NCBI GenBank assembly: GCA_036351155.1
Contig: JAZBOO010000280.1
Coordinates: 6,147 to 70,146, forward strand
Origin: Candidatus Krumholzibacteriia bacterium
GTDB taxonomy: Bacteria > Krumholzibacteriota > Krumholzibacteriia > LZORAL124-64-63
DNA length: 64,000 bases
Reading direction: 5' to 3'
Numbering within the stretch: the first letter of the stretch is position 1; every line of letters begins with the position of its first letter. A model generated the notes under the pieces. That model saw only the letters and a program-made list of their open reading frames with translations, was not told the origin of the DNA and did no database searches. The position numbers and the translations under genes are program-made. Positions 1-55,581 of this stretch are shown piece after piece.

Positions 1-506
1 TGATCGGGGGCGGACACCAGGAACGCGGACGTCGGGCCGGCACCGAAAACACCCCCGGCATCGCCGGCATGGGTGCGGCTTGCACCCTGGCGGCGGCCAA
101 CATCGCCCACGAGAACACCGTGGTCCGCGGCATGAGGGACCGTCTGGAGCAGGGCCTCCTGGAGGCCATCCCCGACAGCCGCCGCAACGGTGACGCGGAG
201 TTCCGTCTGCCCAACACCACCAATATCAGTTTCGAGTTCATCGAGGGCGAAGGCATCCTGCTGTTGCTGGATCGCCTGGGTGTGGCCGCCAGCAGCGGGT
301 CGGCCTGCACCAGCGGCAGCCTCGAGCCCAGCCACGTGCTGCGCGCCATGGGCCTGCCCTTCACCCAGGCCCACGGGTCCATCCGGTTTTCCCTTTCGCG
401 TTACAATCGCCCCGAAGAAATCGAGTACGTGATCAAGGCCCTGCCCCCCATCATTGCCCGACTGCGCATGATCACGCCCTTCAATGCCGAAAGGGCGACG
501 TTCTAG
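1..506 (+). CDS. Cysteine desulfurase (IscS/NifS family), C-terminal part; the 5' end lies upstream of the window
   Basis: The reading frame is open from position 3. Translation ...RRAGTENTPGIAGMGAA...SSGSACTSGSLEPSHVLRAMG... matches the class V aminotransferase / cysteine desulfurase C-terminal region (SGSACTSG active-site Cys loop). Stop at 504-506. Confidence 0.85.
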   Translation, partial: IGGGHQERGRRAGTENTPGIAGMGAACTLAAANIAHENTVVRGMRDRLEQGLLEAIPDSRRNGDAEFRLPNTTNISFEFIEGEGILLLLDRLGVAASSGSACTSGSLEPSHVLRAMGLPFTQAHGSIRFSLSRYNRPEEIEYVIKALPPIIARLRMITPFNAERATF

Positions 507-7267: not shown

Positions 7268-7293
7268 CCGCCATCGCGATCCGGAAATTGGAC

Positions 7294-7329
7294 GGCTCAG
7301 GGACCCTGCTCCCTGAGCCGTTTTGTTTC
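7294..7329 (+). terminator. Rho-independent terminator of surA: GGCTCAGGGA-ccctgc-TCCCTGAGCC followed by GTTTTGTTT
   Basis: Perfect 10-bp GC-rich stem, 6-nt loop and a U-rich tail, 27 nt after the surA stop. It overlaps the last codons of the convergent minus-strand gene. Confidence 0.75.
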
Positions 7330-8787
7330 GGCCTCCAGAAAGGCGGGCAACCAGGGGAAGGCTTCCAGCAGGTTGCCGCAATTCTCGGCGAAGGCGCTCA
7401 TGACCTCGGGGTTGCGGCTGCTCCAGAGCAGGGTGATCCATTCCTTGAGCAGACGGTCGGCGGTGTCCTGGTCGGTGTCGAGGGTGCCCTGGAAATCCTG
7501 CCCCACCGCCAGTTGACAGACCAGCAGACCCAGCTGCGCGATGGGATCAGGACCGGAGTGCCGCGCCAGGATCTGGCCCGCGCCTGCCGGTCGGCCCTGA
7601 CCCAGCAGCAGCCGCGCGCAGGGAATGGCCGCTTCGGGGTGGGCGTTGAGATGGTCCCCGAGGGGGGCCTGTTCCGGGTCAAATCCCGCGCAAACCGAGA
7701 GGGCCATCAGGGCCTCGGTGTCGGTGGGGGCCGAGACAGCCGCCTGCCTGGCCAGGATCGAGGCCCGGTCTCGATCGCCACGGTTCAGGGCCAGACGGCA
7801 TAGTCCCAGAAGTGGGCGGGTCACCGCCAGCTGACTGGCCGCATCGGCAGGGAGATCCAGGCAGCGCTGGAAGGCTGCACCCGCCTGGTCCGTTTGCTCC
7901 GCCGCCTCATGCAGCAGACCCCGCTGCAGCCACCAGGCGGCCGATTCCCCTGACCAGTGGCGATGAGCGTCCAGCCAGGTGAGTCCTTCGCGGGGATCGC
8001 TGAACAGCCTCTGCACCATCATGGCCGCCAGTTCACCGCTCCAGGCCCGGCCCTTGAGGTCTTGCGCCTGCTGGGGCGTCAGCCCGGCCAGGTGCTCCAC
8101 ACAGGCGTGAGCCTCCTGCCGGCCCAGATCCTGATCTTCCCAGAAACGCGCGATTTCCAGGATCTTGAACCGACAGTAAAAATCCTCGGGATCCTGCTCC
8201 AGGGACAGCCGCAACAGGGTCAGATCCCGATCCTTCTTGTTGCGGTCGGCGGCCACCTCACGCACGTAGCCCAGGTGGTCGACCACGCCGTCGAGGTGGA
8301 CCAGTTTCAAGCTCTCGCGCCCGAGCATGTCCTGTACGGGGACCGAGATATCCTCGTGGATGCGGTAGCGAAAGCGCACCTCGGGCCGGTTGCGGAACAG
8401 TCGCAGAAGCCGGCTTTCCCGCCGGTGTCCCCCGGGCAGCTGGTTGCGCATGACCACCGTGGCCGCCCCGGCCTGCGGGTCGTGCACCAGCCGGCGAATT
8501 TCCGCTTTCAATGTGGGGCTCACACGTTCATCGGCATCGAGGAACAGGATCCACTGGCCGGTGGCCGGCTGCAGAGAGGCGTTGCGGGCGGCGGCAAAAT
8601 CATCGTCCCAGGGATAATCCACCAGCTGGGCTCCGGCCTGCTTCAGCAGGGCGGCCGAGGCATCCCTTGATCCGGTGTCCACGGCGATGAATTCATCCCA
8701 CAGCCCATCCACAGCCGCCAGGAAGTCGGGCAGCATGGTTTCTTCATCACGAAAAATCATACACAAGCTCAAGATGGGCCGGGGCAT
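7297..8787 (-). CDS. Family 2 glycosyltransferase fused to a TPR-repeat C-terminal domain
   Basis: N-terminus ILSLCMIFRDEETMLPDFLAAVDGLWDEFIAVDTGSRD...LFLDADE is the GT2 fold with a DxD motif. The C-terminal half is repetitive and helical (TPR-like). AGGAGC RBS lies 6 nt upstream of ATG 8787. Confidence 0.8.
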   Translation of the reverse strand: MPRPILSLCMIFRDEETMLPDFLAAVDGLWDEFIAVDTGSRDASAALLKQAGAQLVDYPWDDDFAAARNASLQPATGQWILFLDADERVSPTLKAEIRRLVHDPQAGAATVVMRNQLPGGHRRESRLLRLFRNRPEVRFRYRIHEDISVPVQDMLGRESLKLVHLDGVVDHLGYVREVAADRNKKDRDLTLLRLSLEQDPEDFYCRFKILEIARFWEDQDLGRQEAHACVEHLAGLTPQQAQDLKGRAWSGELAAMMVQRLFSDPREGLTWLDAHRHWSGESAAWWLQRGLLHEAAEQTDQAGAAFQRCLDLPADAASQLAVTRPLLGLCRLALNRGDRDRASILARQAAVSAPTDTEALMALSVCAGFDPEQAPLGDHLNAHPEAAIPCARLLLGQGRPAGAGQILARHSGPDPIAQLGLLVCQLAVGQDFQGTLDTDQDTADRLLKEWITLLWSSRNPEVMSAFAENCGNLLEAFPWLPAFLEAETKRLREQGP

Positions 8788-22009: not shown

Positions 22010-23737
22010 ATGAACCGTTCCCTGCAGATCAGGGCTGGACTGAGTATCCTTGTCCTCCTGTTCTCCATCTATGGGTTGTTGCCCACCTTCAAAGCCCTGT
22101 CGATTTCCTCCGAGGAACGCGAGGCGGCCAAGGACGACCCGGTCAAGATGGCGGAAATCTCTGAAATCGACGCGGCGGCCATTCGCCGGGGGCTGGATCT
22201 CAAGGGTGGTATGTATCTGGTGCTCGAAGTCGAGCAAACCGGGATGAATTCCTCCGAAGCCCAGAATACCCTCGATCGAGTCAAGACCATCCTGACCAAC
22301 CGGATCGACAAGTTCGGCGTCAGCGAGCCGGAAATCACCACCTTCGGCAGCAGCCGTATCGTGGTGAAGTTGCCGGGTCTGCAGGATCCCGAGCGGGCCA
22401 AGAACCTGCTGGGCTCCACCGCCCAGCTGGAATTCCGTCTGGTGCGCCCGGACGCGGAAATCCAGACGGCTCTCGAGACCCTGGACGAGCTGTTCCTGGG
22501 TAGCGTGACGGCCGAGACCAGTGAGCCTGAAGCTGGGGTTGATCCCGTGGAAACGCCTGCCGAGGACCCGGCCGAGGTCGATGACCCCGCCGTGGCCGAA
22601 GCCGACTCCGCCGGGGAAGAGAATCCCTTCGGCGACCTGGACGAACTGGCCGACAACGAGGCCGCCGCCGAGGATTTCCTGCGCGATCATCCCTTCAGCG
22701 GCCGGCTGATTGTTCAGCCCGGCATCTTGGCCACCCCTCTGTTCGTCAACGAGGACGATGTCCTGCTGGTGCAGGGCATGCTCGATGACCCGCGCGCCAA
22801 GCGTCGCCTGCGTGACATGGAATTCCAGCTCGGCGCCGAGGCCATGGCCTTTGGCGAGGGCCTGTTCCTGCGCCCCCTGTATCTGGTCGACGGCAAGCCC
22901 GGCATGACCGGTGACCACCTCAAGAGTGCCGTGCCGACCGCCAACCCGGACCGTCCCGGCAGCTGGCAGGTGAGCTTCGCCCTGGACAGCCGTGGCGCCC
23001 GCACCTTTGCCAAGCTCACGGGTGAGAACATCAACCGTTTCCTGGCGATCAGCCTGGACGACCGCATCGCCTCGGCGCCGCGGATCGACAGCCGCATTCC
23101 CGGCCAGGGCGTGATCACCGGCGACTTCGACCACAACGAAGCCAAGGACCTTTCCACTCTGCTGGAAGCCGGTGCCCTGCCCGTCGACATCTACATTGCC
23201 GAGGAGCGTACCGTGGGCCCGAGCCTGGGGAGCGACTCCATCCGCATGGGTGTCTCGGCCGCTCTGTACGGCTCCATCCTGGTGATCCTGTTCATGCTGA
23301 TCTACTACCGGATCAGCGGTCTGGTGACCGTGATTGCCCTGATCAGCAACATCCTCATCCTGATGGCCATCCTGGGTCAGGCGGGGCTGGTGCTCACCTT
23401 GCCTGGTATTGCGGGTATCATCCTGACGGTGGGTATGGCCGTTGATGCCAACGTGCTGATCAACGAGCGTATTCGCGAGGAGCTCCGCAAGGACAAGACC
23501 ATTCGCGCGTCGGTGCAGGCCGGGTATGCCAACGCCACCCGGACCATCCTGGACGCCAATATCACGACCCTGATCGCGGGCGGCATCCTCTGGATGTTCG
23601 GCACCGGCCCCATCAAGGGCTTTGCCGTCACCCTGAGCATCGGTATCGCCACCAGCGTATTCACGGCCCTGGTCATGACCCGTTTCATCATGGAGATGTA
23701 CACGCGGAACAAGGGCCAGCAGAAAATGAGTATCTAG
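22010..23737 (+). CDS. secD: Protein translocase subunit SecD
   Basis: N-terminal TM, LDLKGGMYLVLEV, large periplasmic domain, six C-terminal TM segments with SecD/SecF signature blocks. Contains an acidic insertion (PAEDPAEVDDPAVAEADSAGEE). Confidence 0.92.
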   Translation: MNRSLQIRAGLSILVLLFSIYGLLPTFKALSISSEEREAAKDDPVKMAEISEIDAAAIRRGLDLKGGMYLVLEVEQTGMNSSEAQNTLDRVKTILTNRIDKFGVSEPEITTFGSSRIVVKLPGLQDPERAKNLLGSTAQLEFRLVRPDAEIQTALETLDELFLGSVTAETSEPEAGVDPVETPAEDPAEVDDPAVAEADSAGEENPFGDLDELADNEAAAEDFLRDHPFSGRLIVQPGILATPLFVNEDDVLLVQGMLDDPRAKRRLRDMEFQLGAEAMAFGEGLFLRPLYLVDGKPGMTGDHLKSAVPTANPDRPGSWQVSFALDSRGARTFAKLTGENINRFLAISLDDRIASAPRIDSRIPGQGVITGDFDHNEAKDLSTLLEAGALPVDIYIAEERTVGPSLGSDSIRMGVSAALYGSILVILFMLIYYRISGLVTVIALISNILILMAILGQAGLVLTLPGIAGIILTVGMAVDANVLINERIREELRKDKTIRASVQAGYANATRTILDANITTLIAGGILWMFGTGPIKGFAVTLSIGIATSVFTALVMTRFIMEMYTRNKGQQKMSI

Positions 23738-23825
23738 GTCTCGACCCGGTCGAGCGCAGATATACACCCCCGGCAACGGGGCATGAAACCGAGCCGGCAG
23801 GGTTCGGGAAAGGTCGGACAGGAAG

Positions 23826-24752
23826 ATGGAATTCTTCAGGAACCCCAGCATCAACTTTGTTGGCGGCATGAAGGGGGCGTTCACCGTCTCGGCGGTGCTC
23901 GTCGTGCTGAGCCTTCTTTCGCTGCTGATCCACGGCGGTCCGCGGATGAGCATCGATTTCACGGGCGGCTCGGTTTTGCAGGTCAAGATTTCGCCCGTGC
24001 CCGAGGTGGGCGACATTCGCTCCACCCTGGAAAACGCCGGCTACGAGGGTGTGCAGGTGACCGAGTTCGGCTCGCAGGACGAGTTCCTGATCACCTTCGT
24101 GAACCCCGAAAGCACCGAGGAAACCCTCGATGCGGCCCAGGGCCTGCTGGCCGATCTCCGCACGGGCCTGAGCGGTTCGGAAATCGAGCTGCGGCGCGAA
24201 GAGACCGTGGGACCCAAGATCGGCGGCGAGCTGCGCGATGCCGCGGTGAACTCCGTGGTCTCGGCCCTGGCCCTGATCGTGCTGTACATCACCATCAGGT
24301 TCGTGTTCCGCTACGGGATCGCGGCCATCATCGCGTTGATTCACGATGTGTCCTTGACCCTGGGTGTGTTCTCGTTGCTCGACTTCGAGATCAGCCTGCA
24401 GATCATCGCCGCCTTCCTCACCATCATCGGTTACTCGCTGAACGACACCATCGTGGTGTTCGATCGTATTCGCGAGAACATGAGGCTGCGCCGCAAGGAG
24501 AGCTATCGCGAGGTCATCAACCGGTCCATCAACGAGTGCCTGAGCCGGACGGTGCTGACCTCGGTCACCACCTTCTTCGTGTCCGCCATGCTCTACATTT
24601 TCGGCGGCCCGGTGATTCACGATTTTGCCTTCGCGCTGTGCTTCGGCGTGGTCATCGGTACCTACAGCTCGATGTTCATCGCCAGCCCCGTGCTGGTGTG
24701 GTGGTACGAGCGTCGGATCGCCGACAAGAAGCGCATGGCCACCGACATGTAA
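23826..24752 (+). CDS. secF: Protein translocase subunit SecF
   Basis: MEFFRNPSINFVGGMK..., DFTGGS, six TM segments, SecF family. Confidence 0.92.
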   Translation: MEFFRNPSINFVGGMKGAFTVSAVLVVLSLLSLLIHGGPRMSIDFTGGSVLQVKISPVPEVGDIRSTLENAGYEGVQVTEFGSQDEFLITFVNPESTEETLDAAQGLLADLRTGLSGSEIELRREETVGPKIGGELRDAAVNSVVSALALIVLYITIRFVFRYGIAAIIALIHDVSLTLGVFSLLDFEISLQIIAAFLTIIGYSLNDTIVVFDRIRENMRLRRKESYREVINRSINECLSRTVLTSVTTFFVSAMLYIFGGPVIHDFAFALCFGVVIGTYSSMFIASPVLVWWYERRIADKKRMATDM

Positions 24753-24760
24753 CGGCCCCG

Positions 24761-24832
24761 GAACACTGGCCCCAAAACAAGGGATCCGGAATGTCCTCGC
24801 CACTTCGTGGCTGCGGATTTTCCGGATCCCTT
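24761..24832 (+). terminator. Long nested palindromic element after secF: 21-bp stem CCCAAAACAAGGGATCCGGAA / TTCCGGATCCCTTGTTTT(T)GGG, with inner hairpin GCCACttcGTGGC in the loop
   Basis: Seen directly in the sequence, 9 nt after the secF stop. The U-run lies inside the 3' arm. A second related hairpin GCCACttctcgGTGGC sits at 24848-24863. Confidence 0.55.
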
Positions 24833-25105
24833 GTTTTTGGGCCAGTGTTCCGGGGAAGCCACTTCTCGGTGGCCATACTGTCCGCTTACGGGGTATAGAA
24901 GTCTCTTTTCGCGGTCAAATGGTCCGGAGGAGAAGCTGCGGGTACTGAGGGGCTTGGCGGCAAAATCCTTGCTTTCACCTATTTCCTGGCGAAAAATTGA
25001 GGTTTGGGGGTACAATGGGGGAGTGAGGTCCACAGGAAGTCTCCAGGCATGATCCTTGCCCTTTTCCTGGTGAGACATGGACCAATTTTTCTGGAGAGAC
25101 CGGAA

Positions 25106-25606
25106 TTGACCTATTTCAAGAAAACATCCCACCTTCATCAGATCGGCTTCTTCCTGGGGCTGGGGCTGCTGGTGTTCACGTGCGCCATTCCTGCCCTGGG
25201 CAAGATCGACAAGTCGGGGGCTCGCCTATCCGGCGCCGAGCCTGACCTCGTTTTCGAGGCCATTGCCACGGCCTGGGAACTCGGGGACGAGGATGCTCTG
25301 GCCAAGCTGGTGCACGAGAACGGCCTGCGGGTGACCAGCGGCGACTACAACCGTTTCACCGATTACAGCCCCAGTCAGGCATTCTACTATTTCCGCAATC
25401 AGTTTCGCACCTACCCGACGGTGTCCTTCGGCATCGAACGCATGCAAAAGCAGATGTCGGGTCAGGACCGGGTGCATGGTATGGTGAGCTGGCAATACCA
25501 GCGCACCAGGGGTGGGCCGGTGCAGGAACTCAAGCTGGTCCTGGTTTTGACCCGGCAGGGAAGCAACTGGCGGCTGGCGGAGATCAATACCATCAACAAG
25601 AGGTAA
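25106..25606 (+). CDS. Small secreted protein, possibly NTF2/SnoaL-like fold
   Basis: GGAGAG lies 7 nt upstream of TTG 25106. Signal peptide MTYFKKTSHLHQIGFFLGLGLLVFTCAIPALG. About 130-aa mature domain. The fold assignment is an inference only. Confidence 0.5.
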   Translation: MTYFKKTSHLHQIGFFLGLGLLVFTCAIPALGKIDKSGARLSGAEPDLVFEAIATAWELGDEDALAKLVHENGLRVTSGDYNRFTDYSPSQAFYYFRNQFRTYPTVSFGIERMQKQMSGQDRVHGMVSWQYQRTRGGPVQELKLVLVLTRQGSNWRLAEINTINKR

Positions 25607-55172: not shown

Positions 55173-55196
55173 ATCATTCACCAGGCGCGTCGAGAC

Positions 55197-55235
55197 AAAA
55201 AAGGCCCCGGGCTTGCACCCGGGGCCACTTTTTTT
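55197..55235. terminator. Bidirectional intrinsic terminator AAAAAA-GGCCCCGGG-cttgca-CCCGGGGCC-TTTTTTT between convergent genes
   Basis: Perfect 9-bp GC stem flanked by an A6 tract and a T7 tract, giving U-tails in both orientations. Confidence 0.85.
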
Positions 55236-55581
55236 ACTCCGACCACACGGCCAGCTCATTGCCGCCGGGCTCGCTGAAGTGGAAACGCTTGCCCCCGGGA
55301 AACTCGTAGGTCTCCTTCACAATGGTCCCCCCGGCAGCTTTCACCTTGGCCACCACGGAATCCAGATCCGGAGCGTAAAAAACCACCAGAGGGCCGCCGC
55401 TTGCCGCCTTGTCGCCCTGGGCGAAACCACCGCGCATGGCGGCGTCCTTGAAGCTGGCGTACTCCGGTCCAAAGTCCTTGAACTCATAGCCGAAAACCTC
55501 CTGGAAGAAGGCCTTGCTACCGTTCAGATCGGTGGTGGTGAATTCGATGTAATCGATGGCGTTGGGATGGCTCATGTTCAA
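55234..55581 (-). CDS. VOC-family (glyoxalase / bleomycin-resistance-like) protein
   Basis: IDYIEFTTTDL...FFQEVFGYEF...GGPLVVFYAPDLD...FHFSEPGGNELAVWS pattern of the betaalphabetabetabeta VOC fold. Confidence 0.65.
   Translation of the reverse strand: MNMSHPNAIDYIEFTTTDLNGSKAFFQEVFGYEFKDFGPEYASFKDAAMRGGFAQGDKAASGGPLVVFYAPDLDSVVAKVKAAGGTIVKETYEFPGGKRFHFSEPGGNELAVWSE

What the first reader, a model, noticed from the sequence alone, without database searches (positions are those of the whole stretch)
24753..24900. Nested palindromic RNA-like element downstream of secF
Nine nucleotides after secF lies a 21-bp near-perfect inverted repeat (CCCAAAACAAGGGATCCGGAA ... TTCCGGATCCCTTGTTTT-T-GGG). Its 28-nt loop itself contains the hairpin GCCACttcGTGGC. 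About 45 nt further on, a second copy of the same inner motif (GCCACttctcgGTGGC) recurs with similar flanks (ATGTCC / ATACTGTCC). The intergenic region is about 350 bp, which is long for this compact genome. The structure is more elaborate than a simple terminator and could be a REP-like repeat, a small RNA, or a protein-binding site. Both strands translate to ...DPLF(W/L)GQCSG..., which explains the spurious mirror ORFs in the track.
Basis: seen in the sequence. Interest (0 to 1): 0.5.

Follow-up and report, generated by a model that had tools for sequence, protein, structure and literature searches.

The report
Tip-conserved long palindrome after secF
The hairpin after secF is real and much longer than reported; it sits where relatives have an ordinary transcription terminator, and it belongs to an apparently undescribed family of gene-end palindromes that share a small conserved tip but have arms made from each locus's own sequence.

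Summary
The inverted repeat is real but was understated. The arms are 36 bp with one mismatch (24756-24791 / 24820-24855), around a 28-nt centre. They continue in register to 62 nt (85%), into the last codons of secF. The element is single-copy in the window and matches no Rfam family, but it is not a plain terminator.

Close Krumholzibacteria relatives (SecF 87-99% identical) carry a hairpin at the same place. Its arms have almost entirely different sequences but stay complementary, and its centre is conserved (YGTCCTCGC-small hairpin-GGCTGCGGATT). More distant relatives have ordinary G+C-stem/T-run terminators there.

The same tip caps long palindromes behind at least seven other genes in related contigs, each time in the gene's orientation. 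Each has locus-specific arms that run into that gene's stop codon.

The arms are almost purely Watson-Crick (425 WC, 3 G·T, 9 A·C in the inner 35 bp of 13 copies). This argues for DNA-level templated copying rather than RNA-type compensation.

Best reading: a two-way intrinsic terminator (A-tract / G+C clamp / T-tract) hosting a REP-like conserved imperfect hairpin tip, with arms extended and homogenised by template switching. What recognises the tip is unknown. I rate it a new variant of known kinds, moderately to highly interesting.

The parts
23826..24752 (+). secF coding sequence (308 aa; stop TAA 24750-24752). Its last six codons form the outer left arm.
   Evidence: Pfam SecD_SecF_C, E = 1.4e-68. 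100% identical to a protein named SecF of Candidatus Krumholzibacteria.
24735..24755 (+). Outer left arm: the end of secF (ATGGCCACCGACATGTAA) plus CGG. It is the template of the degraded outer right arm.
   Evidence: the repeat finder I1 extends the arms to 24735-24796 / 24815-24876. The 11-nt match ATGGCCACCGA / TCGGTGGCCAT lies on the same axis as the core (i + j = 49611). The C-terminus RMAT(D/E)M is conserved in relatives with and without the extension.
24756..24791 (+). Core left arm, 36 nt: outer G+C-rich part (24756-24773), A-tract AAAACAA (24774-24780), G+C clamp GGGATCCGGAA (24781-24791).
   Evidence: Sequence; folds. Homologous to the spacer between the stop codon and the terminator in relatives L086, L092 and L093.
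24792..24819 (+). Conserved tip TGTCCTCGCCACTTCGTGGCTGCGGATT. It is an imperfect mini-helix: T x T mismatch, G·U, U-A, C-G, C-G, U x C mismatch, C-G, bulged U, then GCCAC / GTGGC (24799-24803 / 24807-24811) closing a TTC loop.
   Evidence: Invariant or nearly invariant columns in A3 and A4. Pair counts. Covariance model R1 scores 93.8 bits on + and 51.4 bits on -. The same tip occurs at other loci.
24820..24855 (+). Core right arm, 36 nt: G+C clamp TTCCGGATCCC (24820-24830), T-tract TTGTTTTT (24831-24838), outer part GGGCCAGTGTTCCGGGG (24839-24855).
   Evidence: Sequence. One mismatch to the left arm (24838 T against 24773 C). Three paired double substitutions relative to L082, at 24760/24851, 24764/24847 and 24774/24837.
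24856..24876 (+). Outer right arm: a degraded inverted copy of the secF 3' end.
   Evidence: This stretch is a roughly 38-nt insertion relative to the 93% relative L086, which has TTTTTT directly after its stem (A2).

Best explanation
This is the transcription-terminator hairpin of the secD-secF operon, in an elaborated form that belongs to a dispersed family.

Shown:
- The core layout is A-tract, 11-bp G+C clamp, structured tip, mirror clamp, T-tract. That is the design of a two-way intrinsic terminator.
- It lies where more distant Krumholzibacteria have an ordinary G+C-stem/T-run terminator, and upstream of a separately promoted operon.
- The 25-38-nt tip is a conserved imperfect mini-hairpin. 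It also caps long palindromes behind at least seven other genes in related contigs, always in the orientation of the upstream gene.
- The arms are locus-specific. They stay almost perfectly Watson-Crick for about 32-40 bp and continue, degraded, as an inverted copy of the upstream gene's last codons and stop codon.

Inferred:
- The arms are created and homogenised at the DNA level by intrastrand template switching at a quasi-palindrome. The right arm is copied from the left arm, because the left arm is coding or ancestral spacer sequence. They are not kept by RNA-type stepwise compensation.
- The tip is held by purifying selection because some factor recognises it in hairpin form. Its identity is unknown, and so is whether it binds RNA or single-stranded DNA. 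That recognition, or the tip's stability, favours long arms.

Expected working: RNA polymerase terminates at the T-tract (about 24838-24845) once the tip and clamp have folded. Read-through transcripts would fold into the full 36-60-bp duplex.
For: Position and layout:
- The consensus of 13 family members reads ...AAAAAAA-GG-CCCGGGAT-tip-CCCGGG-CC-TTTTTTT....
- Distant relatives L003, L005, L006, L008-L013 and L033 have ordinary terminators after secF.
- The 93% and 87% relatives L086 and L093 have a short stem directly followed by T5-6.
- A promoter-like block with a sigma-54-type element is conserved before the next gene.

Orthologous hairpins:
- Window, L082, L083, L090, L091 and L092 keep the tip while their arm sequences differ almost completely.
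- On A4, 26 of 34 pairs carry changes on both sides, 86% of cells are paired against 52% when the partner is slid by one column, and 0 of 500 shuffles reach the observed values.

Paralogous copies:
- L262 has three copies; L241, L334 (two copies), L229, L286 and L010 have the rest.
- Upstream genes and orientations were checked.
- The arms mirror the upstream stop codon region in L262a, L262b, L241 and L334.

DNA-level copying:
- In the inner 35 bp of 13 copies there are 425 WC, 3 G·T, 9 A·C and 18 other pairings.
- Over the full arms, 21 differences are G·U-type and 26 are A·C-type.
- Window versus L082 (SecF 99% identical) shows three paired double substitutions in the core, including an A-T to T-A flip.

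Link between tip and long arms:
- In 241 kb of the close clade, 10 of 14 palindromes with arms of at least 22 bp carry the tip. There are none in 220 kb of other Krumholzibacteria, and none of 15 in 1.08 Mb of other phyla carry it.
- The two lineages with a degenerate tip (L086, L093) have short arms.
- The peroxiredoxin terminators of L335 and L336, which lack the tip, have 15-16-bp stems. Their tip-bearing orthologues have 33-37-bp stems.

Literature (abstracts only): imperfect inverted repeats in bacteria are preferentially corrected to perfect ones by template switching (PMC5941160, PMC7202029). Such mutations 'extend identity between the arms' (PMC3820800). Protein bound to DNA stimulates them (PMC6357072).
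Against: - There are no transcript data, so termination is inferred from layout and position only.
- The T-tract is interrupted (TTGTTTTT) and lies inside the long stem. No T-run follows the full 36-bp stem, and the simple terminator scan does not call it because its loop limit is 3-8 nt.
- Only one copy lies in the 64-kb window and one per 20-kb secF locus. Copy number per genome is unknown.
Their tip identity is therefore partly due to ascertainment, and the range of the family is unknown.
- A conserved G·U at the base of the tip (10 of 13 sequences) and the strict sense orientation would also fit an RNA-level role.
- A second tip subfamily lies antisense to its neighbouring gene.
- No partner protein has been identified.
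Confidence: 0.55

Rival explanations
1. A plain intrinsic terminator of secDF. On this view the large structured loop and the long stem are incidental, and the resemblance of the loop to other hairpins has no functional meaning.
For: It lies directly after secF and before a separately promoted gene. Relatives have ordinary terminators at the same place. It has the A-tract / G+C stem / T-tract layout. It matches no Rfam family and is single-copy in the window.
Against: The tip is conserved in six secF lineages whose arms have turned over almost completely. It recurs behind unrelated genes. Long arms go with the tip and not with terminators in general. The other terminator-like hairpins in the window (7277-7335, 55190-55242) have short stems and small loops.
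Confidence: 0.15
2. A functional RNA element at the 3' end of the mRNA. The long duplex with a protein-binding tip would act as an RNase III site, an exonuclease barrier or a regulatory 3'UTR hairpin. Both the arms and the tip would be kept by selection on the RNA.
For: The tip points the same way as the upstream gene at all verified loci of subfamily 1: secF, two genes in L262, peroxiredoxin, DUF4097, the 1086-aa protein in L229, and the YibQ-like gene in L010. The tip base has a conserved G·U and conserved mismatches and a bulge. The folding energy is very strong.
Against: G·U pairs are almost absent from the arms (3 of 455 inner positions) and no commoner than A·C. That is not the pattern of RNA helices kept by compensation. 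If termination occurs at the T-tract, the outer right arm is rarely transcribed. The outer arms are inverted copies of coding sequence, which point mutation cannot build. Subfamily 2 lies antisense to its neighbouring gene. No Rfam match.
Confidence: 0.15
3. A classical small mobile element (MITE, REP/REPIN or IS remnant) that inserted as a unit behind secF.
For: The tip is dispersed over several loci. Orthologous terminators differ in presence or absence of the tip: behind peroxiredoxin, L334, L241 and L262 have it and L335 and L336 do not. L262 has three copies in 3.7 kb.
Against: The arms are unrelated between copies, even within one contig, so there are no shared terminal inverted repeats. 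No direct target duplication is visible. The left arm is homologous to the ancestral stop-to-terminator spacer of relatives without the extension. The element is syntenic in all relatives with SecF at least 87% identical. There is no transposase, integrase or reverse transcriptase among 40 window proteins scanned. Mobility of the tip alone is not excluded (see the novel case).
Confidence: 0.08
4. A DNA recombination or nicking site that acts as a folded single strand or cruciform, such as an integron attC-like site or the target of an HUH enzyme.
For: The tip is an imperfect hairpin with a conserved bulged base and mismatches, the kind of irregularity such enzymes read (established knowledge of attC, IS608 and REP-RAYT, not tested here). 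The arms are kept perfect at the DNA level. The long arms would favour extrusion.
Against: The geometry is opposite to attC, which has a conserved base and a variable tip. The neighbours are housekeeping genes in conserved synteny, not cassettes. No integrase or Y1 transposase lies in the window. The orientation follows local gene direction even for convergent copies about 200 bp apart in L262. That fits transcription better than replication-strand targeting.
Confidence: 0.05
5. An assembly artefact: a chimeric inverted duplication.
For: Palindromes can be created by amplification or assembly errors (general knowledge).
Against: The same structure lies inside contigs from independent assemblies and sources: JGI 3300040781 (L001), NCBI GCA_942491155.1 (L082), JGI 3300036762/64/65 (L083-85), and ENA contigs of 0.6 and 3.8 Mb (L093, L092). 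It also shows evolutionary variation that keeps the pairing.
Confidence: 0.01

Closest known systems
REP / BIME / REPIN elements (repetitive extragenic palindromes, mobilised by RAYT transposases)
   Same: Both are short (about 25-40 nt), G+C-rich, imperfect palindromes conserved in sequence. Both recur in extragenic positions just 3' of genes, inside or at the end of transcription units. REPs have been linked to termination and mRNA 3'-end effects (PMC3337134; bioRxiv 10.64898/2026.03.23.713779, abstracts only).
   Different: Here the conserved unit forms the tip of a much longer palindrome whose arms are unique to each locus. There is no GTAG/CTAC foot. Density in the window is low (1 per 64 kb). 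There is no REPIN doublet architecture, and no RAYT gene is known for these genomes.
Bidirectional intrinsic (Rho-independent) terminators
   Same: The layout is A-tract, G+C-rich stem, T-tract, directly after a stop codon. Orthologous positions in relatives hold canonical terminators.
   Different: The loop is 25-38 nt and is a conserved structured mini-helix, not 3-8 nt. Pairing continues 15-50 bp beyond the A/T tracts and into the upstream coding sequence.
Quasi-palindrome correction and extension by replication template switching (E. coli and yeast mutation studies; conservation of perfect inverted repeats in Proteobacteria, PMC5941160, PMC7202029, PMC3820800)
   Same: The arms are kept perfect, changes appear on both arms together, and the palindrome is extended by an inverted copy of the flank.
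   Different: That work describes a mutational process at arbitrary inverted repeats. Here it appears tied to one conserved tip sequence at many loci, with perfect zones of about 32-40 bp over long evolutionary times.
Integron attC sites
   Same: Both are imperfect palindromes directly after the stop codon of a gene, with conserved unpaired or extrahelical bases. attC sites function as folded strands.
   Different: attC has a conserved base (R/L boxes) and a variable tip, whereas this family has a conserved tip and variable arms. The neighbours are syntenic housekeeping genes, and no integrase is nearby.
MITE-type palindromic repeats (for example Correia elements and ERIC)
   Same: They are dispersed, form hairpins, lie in intergenic regions and can act as terminators.
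   Different: In MITEs the terminal inverted repeats are the conserved part and insertions carry target duplications. Here the arms differ completely between copies.

Membership tests
Intrinsic (Rho-independent) terminator | G+C-rich hairpin directly downstream of a gene or operon | tested here: met
   The stem starts 4 nt after the secF stop codon. The 11-bp G+C clamp plus the tip helix folds strongly.
Intrinsic (Rho-independent) terminator | U/T-tract immediately 3' of the stem | tested here: inconclusive
   TTGTTTTT (24831-38) follows the clamp directly, but it is itself paired with the A-tract inside the longer stem. No T-run follows the full 36-bp stem. The simple scan does not call it because its loop limit is 3-8 nt.
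Intrinsic (Rho-independent) terminator | Orthologous position is a terminator and the downstream gene has its own promoter | tested here: met
   There are canonical terminators after secF in L003, L005, L006, L008-L013, L033, L086 and L093. A promoter-like block is conserved before the next gene.
Intrinsic (Rho-independent) terminator | RNA 3' ends at the T-tract | not testable with these tools
   No transcript data are available.
REP / REPIN | Short imperfect palindrome conserved in sequence at many extragenic sites | tested here: met
   The tip is conserved at secF in six lineages and at at least seven other loci. Several of these were found through a tip-anchored pattern, so there is ascertainment bias.
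REP / REPIN | High copy number per genome (tens to hundreds) | tested here: inconclusive
   Counts are 1 copy in the 64-kb window, 1 per 20-kb secF locus, 2 in 20 kb of L334, 3 in 3.7 kb of L262, and 0 in L335 and L336. Whole genomes could not be scanned.
REP / REPIN | Conserved GTAG/CTAC tetranucleotide at the foot of the hairpin; REP doublets in inverted orientation | tested here: not met
   The tip is flanked by variable stem sequence, typically CC(C)GG(G)-AT / TA-CC(C)GG(G), with no GTAG. Copies are single, except for a convergent pair in L277.
REP / REPIN | RAYT (Y1 transposase) gene in the genome | not testable with these tools
   None is present among 40 window proteins scanned against Pfam. 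The rest of the genome was not available.
MITE | Terminal inverted repeats shared between copies, and direct target-site duplications | tested here: not met
   The arms of L262a, L262b, L262c, L241, L229, L286 and the window are unrelated in sequence. No flanking direct repeats were seen.
Integron attC | Conserved R''/R' core sites at the base, a variable centre, and an integrase with cassette array context | tested here: not met
   Conservation is at the tip and not at the base. The neighbours are syntenic housekeeping genes and no integrase is in the window.
Any Rfam 15 RNA family | Covariance-model match at or near the gathering score | tested here: not met
   For the window 24600-25250 the best hit is mir-2320, at 26.5 bits against a gathering score of 90. 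Six other member loci hit only generic miRNA-precursor hairpin models, all below threshold.
Quasi-palindrome maintained by template switching | Arms perfect at Watson-Crick level without wobble enrichment; paired substitutions; an inverted copy of one flank inserted on the other side | tested here: met
   There are 425 WC, 3 G·T and 9 A·C pairings in the inner 35 bp of 13 copies. Window versus L082 shows three paired double changes. The window lineage has a 38-nt insertion relative to L086 that mirrors the secF end. The process itself is inferred, not observed.

The most novel reading that the evidence does not exclude
The conserved tip may be the active core of a new kind of bacterial repeat. 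On this reading it is a small imperfect hairpin, recognised by a dedicated but still unidentified hairpin-binding or nicking protein, that colonises the loops of intrinsic terminators. It then drives fold-back, templated copying of the upstream flank. Each copy thereby builds and keeps renewing a 30-40-bp perfect palindrome out of local sequence, including the end of the neighbouring gene. That would make it a 'self-extending palindrome' family spread through Krumholzibacteria, and perhaps through related high-G+C lineages (subfamily 2).
Probability: 0.2. Interest if true: 0.85.

Novelty: new variant of a known kind. Interest (0 to 1): 0.6.

Why it matters
If the reading holds, it adds a new type to the short list of dispersed bacterial palindromic elements. 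In this type the conserved, presumably recognised part is the hairpin tip, and the stem is made from each locus's own DNA.

It would also be a natural, multi-locus example of palindrome growth and concerted evolution by template switching. So far that process is known mainly from mutation reporters and from statistics on short inverted repeats.

Here it visibly copies coding 3' ends and stop codons into intergenic DNA. It can be followed across graded relatives (SecF 99, 97, 93, 90 and 87% identical).

Practically, such hairpins create mirror ORFs that confuse gene callers. They also mark operon ends in an uncultured phylum for which no terminator or regulatory-RNA annotation exists.

The conserved tip is a concrete bait for finding its binding partner by phylogenetic profiling or pull-down.

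Tried and rejected
- **Rfam.** I searched the intergenic region and six other member loci at permissive E-values. Only generic miRNA-precursor hairpin models hit, far below threshold, so I rejected them.
- **Multi-copy test inside the window.** All gave a single copy. The next CM hits are ordinary terminators.
- **Viral contigs.** Two exact scans found nothing. A loose gapped pattern gave only chance hits without arms.
- **Genome-contig scan with SecF**. It returned only relatives of 81% identity or less.
- **Metagenome pattern scan**. One conserved coding sequence was hit nine times.
- **Taxonomy of subfamily 2.** I tried a CoaBC homologue search and a cluster look-up. The names were truncated and no taxon was obtained.
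- **Sigma-54 consensus as a bare pattern.** It is not enriched in the window. Only its conservation of position supports it.
- **Explanations considered and set aside.** These were attC, MITE, retron msd, CRISPR repeat, a riboswitch or leader for the downstream gene, and tRNA-like or ribozyme folds. None fits the combination of conserved tip, variable arms and housekeeping synteny.
Full report
**What is in the sequence.**

secF (23826-24752, Pfam SecD_SecF_C, E = 1.4e-68) ends with TAA at 24750-52. Four nucleotides later a 36-nt arm begins: CCCCGGAACACTGGCCCCAAAACAAGGGATCCGGAA (24756-24791). Its reverse complement lies at 24820-24855, with a single mismatch (24773 C against 24838 T).

Between the arms lies the 28-nt centre TGTCCTCGCCACTTCGTGGCTGCGGATT. 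The repeat finder extends the arms in register to 62 nt (24735-24796 / 24815-24876, 85% complementary).

The extension arises because TCGGTGGCCAT (24866-76) is the exact mirror of ATGGCCACCGA (24735-45), which covers codons Met-Ala-Thr-Asp of secF.

The region folds far better than shuffled sequence in every form tested:
- RNA, plus strand: -101.6 kcal/mol, z = -11.7.
- DNA: -64.2 kcal/mol, z = -12.3.
- RNA, minus strand: -119.9 kcal/mol, z = -15.4.

In each case none of 200 shuffles did as well. This is the only inverted repeat of its size in the window.

**Organism and reality of the structure.**

The SecF protein is identical to one named as from Candidatus Krumholzibacteria, and many graded relatives exist. 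An independent JGI contig (L001) is identical over the region except for one SNP in the right arm.

The locus, with conserved gene order, was recovered from relatives with SecF identities of 99% (L082), 97% (L083-85), 93% (L086-89), 90% (L091), 89% (L090) and 87% (L092, L093). The gene order is YibQ-like deacetylase, DUF362/4Fe-4S protein, secD, secF, a small protein, then a 1594-aa HAMP histidine kinase. The hairpin is therefore not an assembly artefact.

The window is ordinary chromosome, with genes such as mfd, SurA-type PPIases, tatD, tsaD, 2-oxoglutarate dehydrogenase and aroB. No transposase, integrase or reverse transcriptase is among the 40 proteins scanned.

**Comparison at the secF locus.**

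In L082 and L083 the same hairpin is present. Relative to the window, L082 has three paired double substitutions in the core stem:
- 24760/24851, G-C to A-T.
- 24764/24847, C-G to T-A.
- 24774/24837, A-T to T-A.

L082 also has one change that repairs the window's mismatch, and two unpaired changes.

In L090, L091 and L092 the arm sequences are almost entirely different, yet each forms a 31-38-bp nearly perfect stem. The centre keeps YGTCCTCGC, a small variable hairpin, and GGCTGCGGA(T/A)T.

L086 and L093 have a degenerate centre and a short stem followed directly by TTTTTT or TTTTT, which is a classical terminator. Relative to L086, the window lineage carries a roughly 38-nt insertion on the right side, and this is the mirrored left flank.

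More distant Krumholzibacteria (58-81% SecF identity) have ordinary G+C-stem/T-run terminators after secF and no such centre.

**A family, not a single locus.**

A test for complementary flanks then found the same centre at the tip of long palindromes elsewhere:
- Three copies within 1.2 kb of L262.
- One copy each in L241, L229 and L286.

Chance hits had at most 14 complementary flank positions. Real ones had 27-49.

A covariance model built from 13 members (A4, R1) added further copies:
- L010:657-741.
- Two copies in L334.
- A second subfamily in L277 (two copies), L318, L251, L310 and L294/L304. It has a CCTCCGG internal loop and the motif GGCTGCGGAGG.

L241, L262 and L334-336 are Krumholzibacteria by protein naming and shared gene order around a Fur-peroxiredoxin pair.

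On A4, 26 of 34 pairs show changes on both sides. Paired cells are 86%, against 52% when the partner is slid by one column. None of 500 shuffles reaches the observed values.

No Rfam family matches any member.

**Common anatomy.**

Reading from the outside inward, each arm has four parts:
- A degraded zone that is an inverted copy of the upstream gene's last codons and stop codon. This is seen for secF, for both plus-strand genes of L262, and for peroxiredoxin in L241 and L334.
- A G+C-rich zone.
- An A-tract on the left and a T-tract on the right.
- A G+C clamp, usually containing CC(C)GG(G).

The consensus is visible.

The tip itself is an imperfect mini-helix with conserved irregularities: a T x T mismatch, G·U, U-A, C-G, C-G, a U x C mismatch, C-G, a bulged U, then a 3-9-bp G+C hairpin with a small loop.

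In subfamily 1 the tip points the same way as the upstream gene at every verified locus: secF, two genes of L262, peroxiredoxin, DUF4097, the 1086-aa protein of L229, and the YibQ-like gene of L010. The truncated L286 probably fits as well. This holds even for convergent copies about 200 bp apart in L262.

Subfamily 2 is antisense to its neighbouring CoaBC gene.

**Tip and long arms go together.**

Behind peroxiredoxin, L335 and L336 have ordinary terminators with 15-16-bp stems and 4-5-nt loops. The tip-bearing orthologues L334, L241 and L262 have 33-37-bp perfect stems, with total arms of up to about 85 nt.

I counted palindromes with arms of at least 22 bp:
- Close clade, 241 kb: 14 (58 per Mb), of which 10 carry the tip and two more are by-products of tip copies.
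- Other Krumholzibacteria, 220 kb: none.
- Other phyla, 1.08 Mb: 15, none with the tip.

The near-perfect zone is 31-40 bp in ten copies. It typically starts 3-13 nt after the stop codon (with the gene ends). It therefore fills the non-coding spacer between the gene and the tip.

**RNA or DNA?**

In the inner 35 bp of 13 copies there are 425 Watson-Crick pairs, 3 G·T, 9 A·C and 18 other mismatches. Over the full arms of 19 copies, G·U-type differences (21) are no commoner than A·C-type differences (26).

Helices kept by RNA-level compensation normally carry many G·U pairs and few A·C (my own knowledge). A complement of coding sequence 20-40 nt long cannot be built by point mutation.

I therefore infer that the arms are produced and homogenised by templated copying of one arm from the other. 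That is the quasi-palindrome template-switch process known from E. coli and yeast and proposed for conserved perfect inverted repeats in Proteobacteria (PMC5941160, PMC7202029, PMC3820800; abstracts only).

The direction of copying is left to right, for two reasons. The left outer arm is coding sequence whose product (RMAT(D/E)M) is conserved whether or not the extension exists. The left inner arm is homologous to the spacer of relatives that lack the extension.

The conserved irregular tip would be erased by such a process unless selection keeps it. That is my reason for proposing that something recognises it.

The sense orientation and the conserved G·U leave open that the recognition is of RNA.

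**Function.**

The element sits between the secDF operon and a gene pair with its own conserved promoter-like block. That block has TACAAT at 25011-16 and a sigma-54-type GGCATGATCCTTGC at 25046-59, and the same arrangement occurs in 12 of 22 Krumholzibacteria secF loci. The element also has the A-tract / clamp / T-tract layout of the ordinary terminators of this phylum.

The most economical function is therefore transcription termination, with release expected at the T-tract (24831-38) once the tip and clamp have folded. This is inferred. There are no transcript data, and the simple terminator scan misses the element because of its large loop.

**Verdict.**

I file it as a new variant of known kinds: a terminator, plus a REP-like conserved hairpin, plus a template-switch palindrome. 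I do not file it as a member of REP, MITE or attC, because defining features of each were tested and not met.

The main limits are three. Genome-wide copy number could not be measured. The paralogous copies were found with a tip-anchored pattern. The factor that recognises the tip is unknown.

Noticed in passing
window 24975-25105: A conserved promoter-like block lies before the gene after secF. That gene probably starts at TTG 25106, with GGAGAG at 25093-98. The block has TACAAT at 25011-16 and a sigma-54-type -24/-12 element GGCATGATCCTTGC at 25046-59. The same arrangement sits at the same relative place in 12 of 22 Krumholzibacteria secF loci, for example L002 CTGGCACGCCCCTTGCC. As a bare pattern it is not enriched in the window. 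It accounts for much of the long intergenic region.
   Followed up: partly
L277:84-184(+) and 323-423(-), L318:433-533, L251:1472-1555, L310:955-1035, L294:8138-8219(-) (= L304): A second tip subfamily has a conserved CCTCCGG internal loop on both arms and the motif GGCTGCGGAGG. It occurs in contigs of 67-73% G+C and unknown taxon. Here the tip is antisense to the neighbouring gene (CoaBC in L294 and L310), unlike subfamily 1.
   Followed up: partly
L334:11678-11785 and L336:13805-13943: There are other long palindromes in the same clade with unrelated centres. One has 27-bp arms around a 54-nt structured centre just after the PGI gene. The other has 25-bp arms around an 89-nt centre between PGI and thiI. 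These may be further tip types.
   Followed up: no
L335:10642-10684 and L336:10633-10689, compared with L334:10625-10737, L241:3334-3445 and L262:2503-2602: The tip is present at some orthologous peroxiredoxin terminators and absent at others, within one clade (85-95% protein identity). That is direct evidence that the tip is gained or lost at existing terminators.
   Followed up: partly
window 24625-24948(+), 24807-25052(+), 24662-25138(-), 24676-24876(-): These ORFs cross the palindrome and are mirror artefacts: the same peptide is read from both strands. The paired 371-aa ORFs 23783-24898(+) and 23688-24803(-) over secF are likewise spurious. One ends and the other starts inside the hairpin.
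   Followed up: yes
window 7277-7335 and 55190-55242: These are ordinary terminator-like hairpins of this genome (A-tract, G+C stem with CCCGGG-type top, small loop, T-tract). They are the next-best hits of the family model, at 20-22 bits, and serve as an internal comparison.
   Followed up: partly
window 24853 (L001:2058): There is a single G/T polymorphism at the base of the right arm (CCGGGG in the window; CCGTGG in L001 and L083-85). It creates a C x T mismatch in those sequences.
   Followed up: no
L314, L316, L319, L322, L323, L328, L330, L237, L305: Nine metagenome contigs matched the tip pattern within one conserved, probably coding, sequence that has no complementary flanks. This chance match was multiplied by homology and is a warning for pattern-based censuses of this family.
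   Followed up: yes
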